In this document: piece by piece, positions 25,402-29,557 of the stretch
How positions within the stretch are numbered: position 1 is the first letter of the stretch
Layout: every line of letters starts with the position of its first letter
NCBI GenBank assembly: GCA_016199215.1
Contig: JACQHB010000005.1
Location: 1-45,777, forward strand
DNA from: Candidatus Doudnabacteria bacterium
GTDB lineage: Bacteria > Patescibacteriota > Doudnabacteria > UBA920 > O2-02-FULL-48-8
Length of the DNA: 45,777 nt
Direction of reading: 5' to 3'
The notes under the pieces: generated by a model
Told to the model about the DNA's origin: nothing
The model's database searches: none
What the model saw: the letters and a program-made list of their open reading frames with translations, nothing else
Program-made: the position numbers and the translations under genes

Positions 25402-25812
25402 TCATTTCAGCAAGACTATCGCCAGAATGGGAATGCATGGGAAGGCCGCCAAAGCAAAAACGACAAGCGGCACAAAACCATTGAAGAAGAGCCAGGAGAC
25501 CCCAACCCAGGCGGCCGCTACCAGGATCATGGAACTTACCCGCCGCAGCGTTGCCGCGATTCTTGACTCTCCCCTCCAAAACCTTACGACACCTCCCCAA
25601 GCGGCGTCCACAAATGCAGCAATAGTGAACACCGTTGCCAGGAATCCGAACGCGAGAACCAGGAACATGACAATGCCAACTTCCCTGGGGGTCAGCAGGT
25701 GCCGGGTAAACACGCTGACGGCGAAGTAACCGCCGACAACGAGCAGGCCGAGAACGGCCAGGGCTTTGGTCCACCACGCCAGCGCAAGAAGCCACGCCAG
25801 AGTATAGTCCAT
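25402..25812 (-). CDS. Orphan four-TM membrane protein; start at 25812
   Basis: AAGGAGG SD before ATG GAC TAT, TGnTATTAT upstream, hairpin 25357-25389 downstream. Confidence 0.6.
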   Translation of the reverse strand: MDYTLAWLLALAWWTKALAVLGLLVVGGYFAVSVFTRHLLTPREVGIVMFLVLAFGFLATVFTIAAFVDAAWGGVVRFWRGESRIAATLRRVSSMILVAAAWVGVSWLFFNGFVPLVVFALAAFPCIPILAIVLLK

Positions 25813-25859
25813 CTGATCCTCCTTGTATCCGTGACTAAATAATAGCAAAAAGCTCCCGA

Positions 25860-26483
25860 TTAAGGGAGCCTGAGAAAATCCATAAATTCTTTTTCCGAAA
25901 AGCCTTTTCTTGTCCTGGTTTTGTAAGGCAACGAAACAGTCGAATATTTTTTATATAATTTTTCGCGTGAAGCAAGAAGTTTTGGGTAACACCTCCTCAA
26001 CGCCTGCCAGTTTGTCTCATTTTTCTTTTTGGAAAAAAGTTTCTGCCAAACTACCGGCTTTGGATTAGTCATGTATTTTTGAAACATTTTTTTCCTGATT
26101 CCAAAGGGAGTCTCAAGATGCGCGACCACTGAATATTTATTAAGCTCGCTGCAGATTTTTTCCCCGGCGTAAACCGCGCTTCCGGTAGTATCAATCACCC
26201 AGTTTCCGGATAGGCCCTTCTTGAGCCTGTTTATGATTTCTGTAAAAACTTGGATTTCCAACGATAAATATATTGCCTGGTTCTTCGGCGAGAAGGGTTC
26301 AAACGGCTGTCCCATCCAGCAGGCAACGTCCTTAATTCCTTTATAACCCTGTTTTTTAAGAATTGGGCCTAATTTGTTTTCTATAAGGTCGTCGCAACAA
26401 ATTCGCCTGAATCCTATTTTTGCCAAGCGTTTGCTCCAAGAACTCTTACCGCTTCCCGACATCCCGATCAAAGTAATAACCAT
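25860..26483 (-). CDS. Shikimate-kinase-like P-loop kinase
   Basis: ITLIGMSGSGKS, VIDTTGS, R..LY.KY. Confidence 0.75.
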   Translation of the reverse strand: MVITLIGMSGSGKSSWSKRLAKIGFRRICCDDLIENKLGPILKKQGYKGIKDVACWMGQPFEPFSPKNQAIYLSLEIQVFTEIINRLKKGLSGNWVIDTTGSAVYAGEKICSELNKYSVVAHLETPFGIRKKMFQKYMTNPKPVVWQKLFSKKKNETNWQALRRCYPKLLASREKLYKKYSTVSLPYKTRTRKGFSEKEFMDFLRLP

Positions 26484-26486
26484 ATG

Positions 26487-26542
26487 CTATGCTTTTTGTG
26501 CCATAAGTTTTTGATGCTCTTGCGTATTCAATAATCCACACT
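26487..26542 (-). pseudogene. Displaced, diverged copy of the secA 3' end (CGLLNTQEHQKLMAQKA*)
   Basis: 25 bp identical to 26970-26994; continues in frame with similar residues to a TAG 3 nt before the next ATG. Confidence 0.85.
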
Positions 26543-26663
26543 CTTCTATTTCAAAACTAGTCCACAAGAAGCTGGCCATAACACAAACACCTGTCGTTTC
26601 TCCCGAGGCTTTACAACCCTGCAAATTCATAGTAGACTATTGAATCTACATAAGGAGGAAGCT

Positions 26664-26924
26664 ATGAGAATCGATTCGTACATCAAGCAATTGGTGGAAG
26701 AGGGCTGGCATGACAAGGAAACACTCGTTGTCCTCTGCGCGCGCCGGCTTGGACAAGAACTTTGGGATTACGATTCCATGTACGGCAGGAGACGCGACCG
26801 CGATGACCATGAAGCCAAGGTCGCTCGACTCGGATTCGCACTCGGGATATCCACAACTCCAAAGGAGTTCCTTGCAGCCATCGAGAAGATCGAAACTCTC
26901 GAGGACCAGAGGGCCCGCCGCTAA
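26664..26924 (+). CDS. Orphan small protein (MRIDSY...) between the secA-end duplicates
   Basis: TTTACA-N17-TAGACT promoter, AAGGAGG SD, hairpin 26910-26934. Confidence 0.65.
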   Translation: MRIDSYIKQLVEEGWHDKETLVVLCARRLGQELWDYDSMYGRRRDRDDHEAKVARLGFALGISTTPKEFLAAIEKIETLEDQRARR

Positions 26925-26938
26925 GGCTGGCCCTTTCA

Positions 26939-29557
26939 TTATGTTCTTTTTGCCATCAACTGCTGGTGTTCTTGCGTATTCAATAATCCACACTTTTTCC
27001 ATTTCTTTCCAGAACCGCAAGGGCAGGGGTCATTTCTACCAATATTTTGATCTTTGATATTTGAATTCTGATTTTGCGCCGCAGGCGCTTGGACAACATC
27101 AACTTTAAAAATCGTGTAAACCACTTGCCGATCTATTTCATCAAGCAGGCGCTGGAACAGCCCATAACCTTCATTTTTAAATTCAAGCAACGGGTCTCGC
27201 TGGCCATACCCTCGCAAACGGACTGAGTCGCGCAAATGCTCCATAGTATCCAAATGCTCCTGCCAAAGGGTGTCGATGGAGCGGAGGTAAACCAGCCTTT
27301 CGAGCTGGTTTATGAGTTGCGGCCCCAGTTTGTCTTTCTTGGCCTTGTAAAGTCTTTCTGCCACAGAAACAAAATGAGAAATCAATTTTTCCTGATCTTT
27401 CTCCTCGATTACATCCGATTGTTCAAGCGGCATCAGGCTTGCCATAACCTGATAAATTTCCTTATGATCAACCTCTTCCTGCGAGTAATGGAAATTTACA
27501 ACCTGCCTTATTTCTCCCTCGACAAGGTCCATGATTTTGTCGGACAAATCTGATTCCTGCTCAAGCAGTTCCCTTCTCTTTCCGTAAACAATCGTCCTTT
27601 GCTTGTTCATCACGTCATCATATTCCAACACGTGTTTTCGCATGTCAAAGTTTAATCCCTCAATCTTCCTTTGCGCCGATTCTATGGATTTGGAAACCAA
27701 ACCATGCTCAATCGGCTGATCTTCAGGAATCCCCAATGTCTGCATCAGTTTGCCTACCCTGTCTCCTCCGAACAGGCGCATTAGATCGTCTTCCAAAGAA
27801 AGAAAGAACTGCGAAGAACCGGGATCACCCTGGCGTCCGGATCGCCCGCGCAACTGGTTGTCAATGCGTCTTGATTCGTGTCGCTCCGTTCCAATCACCG
27901 CAAGTCCGCCAAACTCGATAACTTTTTTCTGCTCGTCAGGATCCGCGGGGTTTCCACCCAAAATAATGTCCACTCCTCGGCCAGCGATGTTTGTGGCAAG
28001 CGTAACCGCGCCCAATCTGCCGGCTTGAGAAATGATCTTTGCTTCTTTTTCATGGTTTTTGGCGTTCAAAAGCTCGTGTTCAACTCCGGCTTGCGTCAGC
28101 ATCTTTGAAAGAAGCTCGTTTTTTTCGATCGAGATTGTGCCGACCAAAACCGGCTGGCCTAATTTATTCTTTTCTTTTATGGTCTGGATTACGGCGGTGA
28201 ACTTGCCTTCCACGCTCTTATAAATCTGGTCAGCCAAATCTGTTCTGACCATTGGCTTGTTCGTCGGGATCACCACAACTTCCAGATTGTAAATTTTGTG
28301 GAATTCCTCAGCTTCTGTCTCCGCTGTTCCGGTCATTCCAGCTAATTTTTTATAAAGGCGAAAATAATTCTGGAAAGTGATTGTTGCCAGGGTCTTGCTT
28401 TCCTGCTGGATTTTTACCCCTTCTTTTGCTTCAATAGCCTGGTGCAACCCCTCGGAATAGCGGCGTCCGAACATAAGGCGTCCGGTAAATTCATCCACGA
28501 TCACTATCTCATCCTGCCTCACCACGTAATGAGTGTCTTTCTTAAACAAAGTTTTTGCCCTTAAGGCCTGCTCAATGTGATGGACCGTGGCAATCCCCTC
28601 TTTGTCATAAATATTTTTCACGCCAAGCATTTTCTCAAGCTTCTCAACGCCAGCTTCAGTTAGAGTCGCCGCTTTGTGCTTTTCATCCACGTTGTAATCA
28701 GTATTCTCTTCCAATTTTCCGACAAACTTCGCGAATTCATAATATTTGTTTGTCGGCTCCGTATCCGGGGCGGAAATAATCAGCGGGGTCCGGGCTTCGT
28801 CAATCAAAATCGAATCCACCTCGTCTACGATCGCAAAATGCAGATCCCTCTGCACCATCTGCTCTTTTTGCCAAACCATGTTGTCGCGAAGGTAATCAAA
28901 TCCGTATTCATTGTTGGTTCCATAAGTAATGTCAGCGGCGTAAGCCTGCCGGCGGCTGATCGGCCGCATGTGTTTAACGTCCAAAACCAATCCCTGAACC
29001 GCTGCTTCCACCTGTTTTACCTCTTCCTCCTCCGGTTCATAAGTTGGGTCATACAAAAAAGCGGCTTCGTGCTGAATAGAGGCCGTGGATAATCCCAAAT
29101 AGTGGTAAATCTGCCCCATCCAGGATGCCTGCCATCTGGCCAAATAATCGTTAACAGTAATTAAATGCGCCCCCCTTCCTGCTAACGCGTTGAGGTAAAG
29201 AGGAAGCGTTGCGACCAAAGTTTTTCCTTCCCCTGTCTTCATTTCGGCAATTGCTCCGGAATGCAGGACCATACCGCCGACCAGCTGGACGTCGTAATGC
29301 CGCTGGCCAATGGTTCTTTTGGCCGCTTCCCTAACCGCGGCGTAAGCTTGGGGCAAAATTTTATTCAAATATTCTTTTTGCTCATTCAAATCCAAATCCG
29401 CCAATTGTTTCTTCCAATCAGCGCTGGTTGCCCTAAGCTCATCCTGGGTTTTTTTCTCAAACTCGGCTTCCAGCGAATTGACCTGATCAACCAGCTTTTG
29501 ATACTTCGACACCACAGCCTCATTTGAAGCCCCAAACAGTTTTCCAAAAATTGCCAT
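26939..29557 (-). CDS. secA: Protein translocase subunit SecA
   Basis: EMKTGEGKT, IVDEVDSILIDEARTPLIIS, ATNIAGRGVDI, SEC-C motif GRNDPCPCGSGKK. Confidence 0.98.
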   Translation of the reverse strand: MAIFGKLFGASNEAVVSKYQKLVDQVNSLEAEFEKKTQDELRATSADWKKQLADLDLNEQKEYLNKILPQAYAAVREAAKRTIGQRHYDVQLVGGMVLHSGAIAEMKTGEGKTLVATLPLYLNALAGRGAHLITVNDYLARWQASWMGQIYHYLGLSTASIQHEAAFLYDPTYEPEEEEVKQVEAAVQGLVLDVKHMRPISRRQAYAADITYGTNNEYGFDYLRDNMVWQKEQMVQRDLHFAIVDEVDSILIDEARTPLIISAPDTEPTNKYYEFAKFVGKLEENTDYNVDEKHKAATLTEAGVEKLEKMLGVKNIYDKEGIATVHHIEQALRAKTLFKKDTHYVVRQDEIVIVDEFTGRLMFGRRYSEGLHQAIEAKEGVKIQQESKTLATITFQNYFRLYKKLAGMTGTAETEAEEFHKIYNLEVVVIPTNKPMVRTDLADQIYKSVEGKFTAVIQTIKEKNKLGQPVLVGTISIEKNELLSKMLTQAGVEHELLNAKNHEKEAKIISQAGRLGAVTLATNIAGRGVDIILGGNPADPDEQKKVIEFGGLAVIGTERHESRRIDNQLRGRSGRQGDPGSSQFFLSLEDDLMRLFGGDRVGKLMQTLGIPEDQPIEHGLVSKSIESAQRKIEGLNFDMRKHVLEYDDVMNKQRTIVYGKRRELLEQESDLSDKIMDLVEGEIRQVVNFHYSQEEVDHKEIYQVMASLMPLEQSDVIEEKDQEKLISHFVSVAERLYKAKKDKLGPQLINQLERLVYLRSIDTLWQEHLDTMEHLRDSVRLRGYGQRDPLLEFKNEGYGLFQRLLDEIDRQVVYTIFKVDVVQAPAAQNQNSNIKDQNIGRNDPCPCGSGKKWKKCGLLNTQEHQQLMAKRT

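What the first reader, a model, noticed from the sequence alone, without database searches (positions are those of the whole stretch)
26484..26994. Insertion into the secA 3' end with a replacement C-terminus
Seen: secA ends KCGLLNTQEHQQLMAKRT*; 452 bp away lies ECGLLNTQEHQKLMAQKA* (25 bp identical), 3 nt before the kinase ATG, with an orphan gene between. Known: integrative elements that target gene 3' ends supply a substitute end. Inference: the downstream copy is the original end, and secA is either an att site or the anchor of homology-facilitated illegitimate recombination.
Basis: partly seen in the sequence, partly recalled or inferred. Interest (0 to 1): 0.66.

Follow-up and report, generated by a model that had tools for sequence, protein, structure and literature searches.

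The report
Mobile gene cassette inside secA's end
A 452-base, one-gene mobile cassette has inserted into the last codons of the essential secA gene of a tiny groundwater-type (Patescibacteria) bacterium. It brought a substitute gene end with it, and relatives show that this spot is a regular landing site for prophages, defence genes and other small cassettes.

Summary
secA (26939-29557, minus strand) ends KCGLLNTQEHQQLMAKRT*. A second copy, ECGLLNTQEHQKLMAQKA*, lies 452 bp downstream. The two share a 25-nt identical block, and the second copy stops 3 nt before the next gene's ATG. The second copy is longer than reported (26487-26610) and includes a decayed zinc-finger part.

Between the copies sits a real 86-aa gene on the opposite strand, with its own promoter, Shine-Dalgarno site and hairpin. 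Its homologues (69-80% identical) lie in the same arrangement after secA in other hosts. Their synonymous divergence is far lower than that of the flanking secA (25/33 against 10/39 fourfold sites identical, p=4e-5), so the cassette moves horizontally. The two closest relatives checked (one of the same genus) have an empty site.

About one genome in eight of the order carries extra secA tails downstream of secA. These bracket one-gene cassettes, restriction-modification genes and, in four genomes, prophages or prophage ends with one clade of tyrosine integrase next to the remnant tail. Two of those phages give SecA a different C-terminus.

It is not settled whether this integrase-less cassette was moved by a phage integrase or by RecA. 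This is a new member of a known kind. Interest is moderate.

The parts
26939..29557 (-). secA, intact, 872 aa. Its last 10 codons and stop (26939-26969) are read as supplied by the inserted cassette.
   Evidence: All SecA Pfam domains and the SEC-C motif are present. It is 87% identical to same-genus G001. The post-core segment is 0.83 identical to the cassette-linked ends of L035/L039 against 0.63 to G001.
26939..27046 (-). attL-like copy: the zinc-finger and tail codons of the active secA end.
   Evidence: nhmmer tail profile, E=4.6e-26.
26970..26994 (.). 25-nt block identical to 26518-26542. The switch from host-like to cassette-like sequence lies in it or at its edges, and its secA-upstream edge is the AAGTG of the Lys-Lys-Cys codons.
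   Evidence: AAGTG is contained in, or abuts, the longest identical block of most repeat pairs in relatives.
26908..26936 (.). G+C-rich hairpin between the convergent stops of secA and the orphan. It overlaps the orphan's last codons and is conserved in all copies of the cassette.
   Evidence: RNA fold -22.8 kcal/mol, z=-2.8. Conserved in L034-L039. The consensus terminator scan did not call it.
26664..26924 (+). Cargo gene: 86-aa protein of unknown function, predicted to consist of four helices. GC 0.50-0.55 against about 0.42-0.45 in the flanks.
   Evidence: AAGGAGG at 26652-26658, 5 nt before the ATG. Homologues 69-80% identical. AlphaFold pLDDT 81. No Pfam, PHROG or PDB match. GC profile.
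26610..26638 (+). Promoter-like site of the cargo gene (TTTACA-17-TAGACT), conserved among copies of the cassette.
26543..26610 (-). Cassette-borne arm: a decayed, frameshifted copy of the secA zinc-finger codons. It shares its indels with the same arm in L039, L034 and L037.
   Evidence: Alignment. The nhmmer hit extends to model position 5.
26487..26542 (-). Displaced secA tail (attR-like, host-type): CGLLNTQEHQKLMAQKA*, in frame, with its stop 3 nt before the next ATG.
25860..26483 (-). P-loop kinase-like gene (weak AAA_33/SKI match) that abuts the displaced tail. It is an accessory gene, found in only 2 of 146 genomes of the order.

Best explanation
SHOWN. A 452-bp unit is inserted in the 3' end of secA. 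In secA direction it reads: shared core, 10 new tail codons plus stop, hairpin, an 86-aa gene on the other strand with its own Shine-Dalgarno site and promoter, a decayed zinc-finger-like arm, then the core again. The insertion leaves secA intact with a substituted C-terminus (QQLMAKRT* in place of QKLMAQKA*). The old tail is stranded 452 bp downstream, in front of the kinase-like gene.

The same cassette occurs after secA of other, distantly related hosts. There it is much less diverged at synonymous sites than the host gene, so it moves horizontally. Once it sits behind a decayed tail and non-secA DNA rather than next to an intact secA, which suggests a later place in an array. Across the order, the last ~100 nt of secA are a recurrent insertion site. 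They bracket one-gene cassettes, toxin-antitoxin and restriction-modification modules, arrays of two cassettes, and prophages that carry a dedicated clade of tyrosine integrase next to the remnant tail.

INFERRED. The secA tail is the attB of these temperate phages. Their attP mimics the secA end, so integration rebuilds the gene. The window's cassette is a non-autonomous derivative that keeps both att copies and lacks a recombinase (a cis-mobilizable element, CIME-like). It would be moved when a secA-targeting integrase is present: in tandem with a phage (accretion, as seen in G009) or in trans. The crossover would lie at or just 3' of the Lys-Lys-Cys codons (AAGTG).

The cargo protein's function is unknown. 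My guess, from what the other cassettes carry, is a small regulator or an anti-phage or addiction factor.
For: - Anatomy and repeat.
- Empty site in G001 and G021.
- Cassette homologues always follow secA in convergent orientation (L034, L035, L036, L039). L039 is colinear through the remnant.
- L038 has the cassette behind a decayed tail and non-secA DNA.
- Fourfold-site identity between the window and L035: orphan 25/33 against flanking secA 10/39. Composition predicts 0.29 and 0.24. Fisher p=4e-5.
- Mosaic of host-like and cassette-like segments on either side of the block.
- Extra tails, always co-oriented with secA, in about 20 of 146 genomes of the order and in other Patescibacteria.
- Cargo: AlbA_2 + Eco57I-type methylase + BsuBI/PstI endonuclease in G002. 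By eye: a HicA/HicB-like pair, a PaaX-like gene and an ATPase + exonuclease.
- Prophage in G116 with integrase PF00589 beside the remnant.
- Related integrases (51-62% identical) beside remnant tails in G078, G094 and G009.
- G009 has prophage - tail - R-M cassette - tail, that is, accretion.
- G009 and G094 belong to different families but share a nearly identical phage-supplied end, CHGK* plus following sequence.
- AAGTG lies within or at the edge of the identical block in most repeat pairs; the blocks are only 9-12 nt for the phages and 8 nt for the same cassette in L039.
Against: - The 452-bp unit has no recombinase. G000 (79% complete) has only one tyrosine recombinase, Xer-like, 29% identical to the phage integrases and on another contig.
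- None of the cassette-only genomes has a close homologue of the phage integrase.
- The 25-nt identical block in the window, and blocks of 44-45 nt in G024 and L064, are longer than a tyrosine recombinase needs. They are about the length RecA needs.
- The left limit of homology in remnants varies between elements.
- Cargo-less end replacements (G013, G041, L142) join further upstream, inside the zinc finger.
- The segment comparisons rest on 27-48 nt each.
Confidence: 0.6

Rival explanations
1. RecA-dependent insertion without a site-specific recombinase. A circular or linear piece of foreign DNA carrying a secA tail as portable homology entered by DNA uptake. It then recombined with the chromosomal tail by a single (Campbell-type) crossover, or by homology-facilitated illegitimate recombination. 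The tail is a hotspot only because it is conserved in sequence.
For: - No integrase lies in or near the cassette or in the cassette-only genomes.
- Identical blocks of 25, 44 and 45 nt in the window, G024 and L064 are about the minimal length for RecA pairing.
- Homology limits and join points vary between elements.
- An earlier unchecked note reports perfect 58-bp direct repeats around maf in the same genome, read there as a single-crossover insertion.
Against: - The same cassette in L039 shares only 8 identical nt (AAGAAGTG) with its remnant. The phage cases share 9-12 nt, too short for RecA, and at the same Lys-Lys-Cys position.
- A dedicated integrase clade sits at this very site in four genomes.
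- Tails of different hosts differ at about 30% of positions, which would strongly depress homologous recombination between hosts.
- Long identity between neighbouring copies can also come from later gene conversion.
Confidence: 0.25
2. An in-place relic. A full prophage or island once integrated here and was almost wholly deleted. The 452 bp are its last fragment and are not mobile as such.
For: Prophages do use this site. CIMEs are defined as decayed elements (PMC5704250).
Against: - The same unit with the same limits (tail, hairpin, gene, promoter, decayed arm) occurs in at least four different host backgrounds. Its synonymous divergence is far below that of the hosts, and once it is not next to an intact secA. 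Independent deletions would not give identical ends.
- The orphan has no homologue in the prophages fetched.
Confidence: 0.1
3. A local tandem duplication of the secA end, followed by divergence and birth of a new ORF between the copies. No foreign DNA is involved.
For: Direct repeats lie close together. The orphan has no known family.
Against: - The interval has higher GC than its flanks.
- The orphan has a 55%-identical relative in a G+C-rich contig beside a STAS-domain-like gene (domain read by eye).
- The cassette is shared horizontally.
- The closest relatives have an empty site.
Confidence: 0.03

Closest known systems
CIMEs (cis-mobilizable elements) and tandem accretion at the 3' end of fda in Streptococcus thermophilus (ICESt1/ICESt3; Pavlovic 2004 and Bellanger 2011, as reviewed in PMC5704250)
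   Same: An element integrated in the 3' end of a protein gene, flanked by attL and attR copies of that end. It has no integration or transfer genes of its own and is stacked in tandem with autonomous elements that use the same site (G009: prophage + R-M cassette).
   Different: The target is secA and the hosts are Patescibacteria. The autonomous partners seen are prophages, not conjugative elements. The unit is far smaller than CIMEs as I recall them (452 bp, one gene). Mobilisation is inferred from sequence only.
Tycheposons and their cargo-only remnants in Prochlorococcus genomic islands (bioRxiv 10.1101/2020.12.28.424599)
   Same: Streamlined genomes in which tyrosine-recombinase elements integrate at a gene's 3' end, leaving arrays of partial target copies that separate small cargo modules.
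   Different: Tycheposons target tRNA genes, whereas here the target is the coding end of an essential protein gene. No relationship between the integrases was tested.
Temperate phages and islands whose attP carries the 3' end of the target gene, so that integration rebuilds it (general principle; tRNA, tmRNA, guaA, fda and similar targets)
   Same: The element supplies a substitute end. The displaced end stays at the far junction. The integrase lies next to one att site (G116, G078, G094, G009).
   Different: The substitute is not a faithful copy. Two phages exchange the order's long CG..EH tail for a canonical CHGK* end, which changes the metal-binding C-terminus of SecA.
Integron gene cassettes
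   Same: Arrays of one-gene units, each bounded by a copy of a recombination site.
   Different: There is no intI, attI or attC-type imperfect palindrome. The cassettes carry their own promoters. The repeated site is the coding end of a gene.
IMEX elements at dif (for example CTX-phi, GGI)
   Same: Integrase-less elements that stack at one chromosomal site and duplicate it.
   Different: There is no GC-skew switch at the site, so it is not the terminus, and no dif-like architecture was recognised.

Membership tests
Site-specific integrative element in the 3' end of a protein gene | The insert is flanked by direct repeats derived from the target gene's 3' end | tested here: met
   58-nt repeat (up to 120 nt by profile), spacing 452, 25 nt identical.
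Site-specific integrative element in the 3' end of a protein gene | The target gene is kept intact by an element-supplied end | tested here: met
   secA is full length with all domains. The segment after the core is cassette-like.
Site-specific integrative element in the 3' end of a protein gene | The site is unoccupied in close relatives | tested here: met
   G001 (same genus) and G021 have one tail and no orphan.
Site-specific integrative element in the 3' end of a protein gene | The element encodes its own integrase | tested here: not met
   There is no recombinase in 26487-27046. G000 has one Xer-like gene, on C12. The feature is met only for the prophages of G116, G078, G094 and G009.
Site-specific integrative element in the 3' end of a protein gene | Excision to a circle and an empty site within a population | not testable with these tools
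CIME (cis-mobilizable element) | Retains attL and attR but lacks integration and transfer genes | tested here: met
   Both tail copies are present. The only gene is an 86-aa orphan.
CIME (cis-mobilizable element) | Autonomous elements with the same site specificity exist and occur in tandem with such units | tested here: met
   Prophages sit at the secA tail. G009 has prophage - tail - R-M cassette - tail. This was seen in other genomes of the order, not in G000.
CIME (cis-mobilizable element) | Derived by decay from an integrase-bearing element | tested here: inconclusive
   The orphan was not found in the prophages fetched. The cassette arm resembles the phage arm only in the part that also matches secA.
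Integron cassette | intI with attI next to the array; attC sites with imperfect inverted repeats | tested here: not met
   There is no integrase near the array, and no inverted repeat in or around the tail copies.
IMEX at dif | The site is the chromosome dimer resolution site at the replication terminus | tested here: not met
   GC skew is uniformly negative over all 45.7 kb, with no switch at 26.5-27 kb.
Homology-facilitated illegitimate recombination | One homologous anchor and one illegitimate joint at microhomology | tested here: inconclusive
   Both junctions lie in homologous tail sequence, which fits a single reciprocal crossover better. The cargo-less replacements in G013, G041 and L142 could be of this kind.

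The most novel reading that the evidence does not exclude
Patescibacteria may have an integron-like but integron-unrelated cassette system anchored on an essential gene. In this reading, many different one- to three-gene units (orphans, toxin-antitoxin pairs, restriction-modification and other defence genes) each carry a copy of the secA tail as their recombination site. They are stacked at the secA-proximal position and shuffled between distantly related hosts by the integrases of secA-targeting phages acting in trans. As a by-product, the elements would rewrite the metal-binding C-terminus of SecA (long CG..EH tail, canonical CHGK, or the AINPDTGKVY-insert allele) and would sometimes donate a SEC-C tail to cargo proteins.
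Probability: 0.3. Interest if true: 0.75.

Novelty: new member of a known kind. Interest (0 to 1): 0.55.

Why it matters
Patescibacteria (CPR) have tiny genomes, few recognisable mobile elements and few known prophages, and how they gain genes is poorly understood.

- **A visible route of gene flow.** A defined landing site in the end of an essential gene collects phages, defence modules and orphan genes in about one genome in eight of this order. That gives a concrete route of gene flow that can be searched for.
- **A host-assignment handle.** A phage whose attP carries a secA tail can be assigned to its host lineage.
- **An annotation warning.** Short SEC-C-like fragments downstream of secA are att remnants, not genes.
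- **A functional question.** Integrating elements can change the C-terminal metal-binding domain of SecA, which in E. coli modulates SecA activity (PMC6620043).

I found no paper that names secA as an integration site. The library searched is incomplete.

Tried and rejected
- **dif/IMEX idea:** rejected, because there is no GC-skew switch at the site.
- **Integron idea:** rejected, because there is no intI and no attC-like inverted repeat.
- **Known RNA in the region:** none. The only Rfam match is a chance one (E=0.58).
- **Further decayed tails elsewhere in the window or genome,** in particular between the AlkD-like gene and DUF456, which would have shown that the kinase block is an older cassette: none found.
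- **Kinase-like gene next to secA in relatives:** it is absent from 144 of 146 genomes, and its one distant homologue lies on another contig than secA.
- **Function of the orphan:** no Pfam, PHROG or PDB fold match. A profile search of 1.8 billion representatives gave one further small protein and one repeat artefact.
- **More contexts for the cassette:** the JGI metagenome scans gave nothing. The kinase search gave no relatives. A 20-mer from the orphan gave 15 chance hits with no orphan and no tail. A genome-contig search with the orphan profile gave one weak partial hit.
- **Viral contig L031:** it matched the degenerate pattern, but the reading-frame scan found no tail-like peptide at the match, so I treated it as a chance hit.
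Full report
**1. What is in the window**

secA lies at 26939..29557 on the minus strand. It is 872 aa, has all SecA domains and a SEC-C motif, and ends ...CPCGSGKKWKKCGLLNTQEHQQLMAKRT*.

A direct repeat of its last 58 nt lies 452 bp downstream (26488-26545 against 26940-26997, 81% identical). The repeat contains a 25-nt identical block at 26518-26542 and 26970-26994. The downstream copy reads ECGLLNTQEHQKLMAQKA*. Its stop is 3 nt before the ATG of a P-loop kinase-like gene at 25860..26483.

I built a nucleotide profile from the last 108 nt of secA of 26 relatives. It hits the downstream copy over nearly its whole length (26487-26610, E=1.8e-11) and hits nothing else in the 0.52-Mb genome. So the remnant also contains a decayed, frameshifted copy of the zinc-finger codons.

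**2. What lies between the copies**

On the opposite strand there is an 86-aa ORF (26664..26924). It has AAGGAGG 5 nt before its ATG, a promoter-like TTTACA-17-TAGACT (26610-26638) and a G+C-rich hairpin over its stop. The interval has GC 0.50-0.55 against about 0.42-0.45 around it.

The protein has no Pfam or PHROG match. AlphaFold models four helices (pLDDT 81), with no PDB fold match. A profile search of 1.8 billion representatives finds only one further small relative (55% identical). That relative lies directly downstream of what I read by eye as a STAS-domain gene, on a G+C-rich 530-bp contig. It is a real gene of unknown function and probably of foreign origin.

**3. The cassette moves**

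Four metagenome homologues of the orphan (69-80% identical) were looked up on six contigs.

- On every contig that reaches far enough, the gene lies in convergent orientation directly after secA (L034, L035, L036, L039).
- L039 is colinear with the window from secA through the orphan to a second tail.
- L034 and L037 have more decayed remnants.
- In L038 the cassette is preceded by a decayed tail (CGLLNTQQH*) and about 190 nt of non-secA DNA. It therefore does not abut an intact secA and probably sits at a later place in an array.

All copies share the same limits: new tail, hairpin, gene, promoter, and a decayed zinc-finger-like arm with shared indels.

Between the window and L035, 25 of 33 fourfold-degenerate sites of the orphan are identical. 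In the adjoining secA only 10 of 39 are. Composition predicts 0.29 and 0.24, and Fisher's p is 4e-5. The secA of these hosts is only 63-76% identical in protein to the window's. The cassette has therefore been exchanged between hosts long after they diverged.

The closest genomes held, G001 (same genus, secA 87% identical) and G021 (same family, 83%), have one tail and no orphan.

**4. Which copy is the original**

I split the tail into zinc-finger codons, a 27-nt core and the 30 nt after the core.

| Segment | Most similar to | Identity |
|---|---|---|
| Active copy, before the core | host relatives (G001) | 0.79, against 0.69 to L035 |
| Active copy, after the core | ends linked to the same cassette elsewhere (L035/L039) | 0.83, against 0.63 to G001 |
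| Remnant, before the core | the cassette arm of L039 | by alignment |
| Remnant, after the core | G001 | 0.73; 16 nt identical; both end LMAQKA* |

This is the attL/attR mosaic expected from one reciprocal crossover in or at the edge of the shared block. The segments are short, so the pattern is suggestive rather than statistically strong.

One caveat concerns the kinase-like gene. It occurs in only 2 of 146 genomes of the order, and in other cassettes a co-oriented first gene abuts the supplied tail (G002, G009, G020). The remnant could therefore be the end supplied by an older cassette that brought the kinase-like gene. I found no further remnant downstream that would prove this.

**5. The site in relatives**

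The long tail KKCG[LM]LNTxEH... is conserved through the order. It is a variant of the SEC-C zinc finger in which the usual His after the third Cys is replaced by Gly and a conserved Glu-His follows.

Extra tails, always co-oriented with secA and downstream of it, occur widely:

- in G020, G003, G013, G024 (two cassettes), G002, G085, G019, G119, G041 and others;
- in about 20 of 146 genomes by a peptide profile, three of which are unrelated SEC-C proteins;
- in other Patescibacteria among a sample of GTDB species (L064, L073, L076, L103, L142).

The cargo between copies includes:

- small ORFs of 52-99 aa;
- by eye, a HicA/HicB-like pair plus an ASCH-like gene, a PaaX-like gene, and an ATPase with an exonuclease;
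- in G002, an AlbA_2 protein with an Eco57I-type methylase and a BsuBI/PstI endonuclease.

**6. Integrase-bearing elements at the same site**

- **G116.** A 31-kb prophage starts right after the secA stop. It is the same sequence as two IMG/VR contigs that begin at the tail. It ends with a 302-aa tyrosine integrase (PF00589, 2.5e-28) and a remnant tail, KKYKKCGLANTAEHQRNLAKQ*. Host genes follow.
- **G078, G094 and G009.** Integrases 51-62% identical to it sit next to remnant tails.
- **G009 and G094, attL side.** secA is followed by phage or phage-derived sequence: phage genes in G009, and the same attL sequence up to the contig end in G094. The two hosts belong to different families, yet the active secA end and the sequence after it are nearly identical: AAGTG(C/T)CATGGGAAGTAG GAGCTGACAAATAGAGCC.... 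This phage family therefore supplies a canonical CHGK* end in place of the long tail.
- **G009, attR side.** The prophage is followed by tail - AlbA_2/R-M cassette - tail. Its AlbA_2-containing segment is 82% identical in DNA over 1,063 bp to that of G002. This is tandem accretion of an autonomous and a non-autonomous unit.

**7. Mechanism**

The secA 3' end is an att site for a clade of phage tyrosine integrases. I regard this part as well supported.

For the window's cassette I favour (about 0.6) the CIME-like reading. The cassette keeps both att copies, has no recombinase, and is moved together with, or by, a secA-targeting element.

In favour:
- The longest identical blocks between paired copies are 9-12 nt for the phages and 8 nt (AAGAAGTG) for the same cassette in L039.
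- In most pairs AAGTG, from the Lys-Lys-Cys codons, lies within the block or at its edge. The window's 25-nt block starts with the last four of these bases.

Against, and in favour of RecA (about 0.25):
- G000 and the other cassette-only genomes have only a Xer-like recombinase.
- The identical blocks of 25-45 nt in the window, G024 and L064 are about what RecA needs, though gene conversion between close repeats would also produce them.
- Join positions differ between element families.

The dif/IMEX and integron readings were tested and rejected.

**8. Comparison with what is known**

The closest known systems are:

- CIMEs and site-specific accretion at the 3' end of fda in Streptococcus thermophilus (reviewed in PMC5704250);
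- arrays of tycheposon remnants with partial tRNA copies in Prochlorococcus (bioRxiv 10.1101/2020.12.28.424599);
- the general rule that elements targeting a gene's 3' end carry a substitute end.

What is new here is the target (the coding end of secA), the lineage (Patescibacteria), the very small one-gene units, and the fact that some substitutes alter SecA's C-terminal metal-binding domain. Searches for secA as an integration site found nothing.

**9. Verdict**

This is a new member of a known kind, of moderate interest (0.55). The more novel reading is an integron-like cassette system anchored on the secA tail and driven by phage integrases. It is not excluded (about 0.3).

Noticed in passing
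L190:1023-1841 (G119:C7): A 272-aa cargo ORF directly after secA runs in frame into the remnant zinc finger and tail (...CPCESGKKWKRCGLINSSEHQNNLAK*). An att remnant appears to have been taken over as the SEC-C-type C-terminus of another protein. G012, G054, G055 and G076 also have ORFs of about 183-195 aa with this tail.
   Followed up: partly
L182:148-224 (G009:C8), L189:879-955 (G094:C1): Two prophages in hosts of different families supply a nearly identical canonical ...KKWKKCHGK* end to secA, while the displaced long tails lie at the far end of the prophage. Variation in SecA's C-terminus in this order may be partly driven by these elements.
   Followed up: partly
L045:2612-2826 (G013), L191:825-1036 (G041), L142:2475-2680: Three genomes (G013 and G041 from different families; L142 not placed) share a variant secA end with an insert in the zinc finger (CPCGAINPDTGKVYKYKKCG.INA..HK.*). 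It is followed about 35 nt later by a remnant of the ordinary tail, and there is no cargo between the two.
   Followed up: partly
window 25402-25848 (-): A 148-aa predicted membrane protein gene has GC 0.56-0.60 in a genome of about 0.44, between the kinase-like gene and the AlkD-like gene. The whole stretch from the secA stop to DUF456 (about 2.5 kb) is absent in same-genus G001, where secA is followed by DUF456 after 60 nt.
   Followed up: partly
window 25860-26483 (-): The P-loop kinase-like gene that abuts the remnant tail is found in only 2 of 146 genomes of the order (34% identical in G007, on another contig than secA).
   Followed up: yes
L186:1-518: The only distant homologue of the orphan (55% identical) overlaps by 4 nt the end of a gene that looks by eye like a STAS-domain (anti-sigma-factor antagonist-like) gene, on a G+C-rich contig. 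This hints at a non-Patescibacteria origin and a possible regulatory role.
   Followed up: no
L049 end (G019:C41) and L048 end (G019:C31): Two contigs of G019 end in the same 27-nt tail core, one as the end of secA and the other as a remnant before the thermonuclease-like and metK genes. The assembly seems to have broken at an occupied secA site.
   Followed up: no
L034 (distal ~700 nt, opposite strand): Downstream of the cassette and a NUDIX gene, a sequence that looks like a SAM riboswitch precedes metK. metK also lies shortly downstream of the secA-tail remnant in G002 and G019 and next to the integrases in G078, so metK may be an ancestral neighbour of secA.
   Followed up: no
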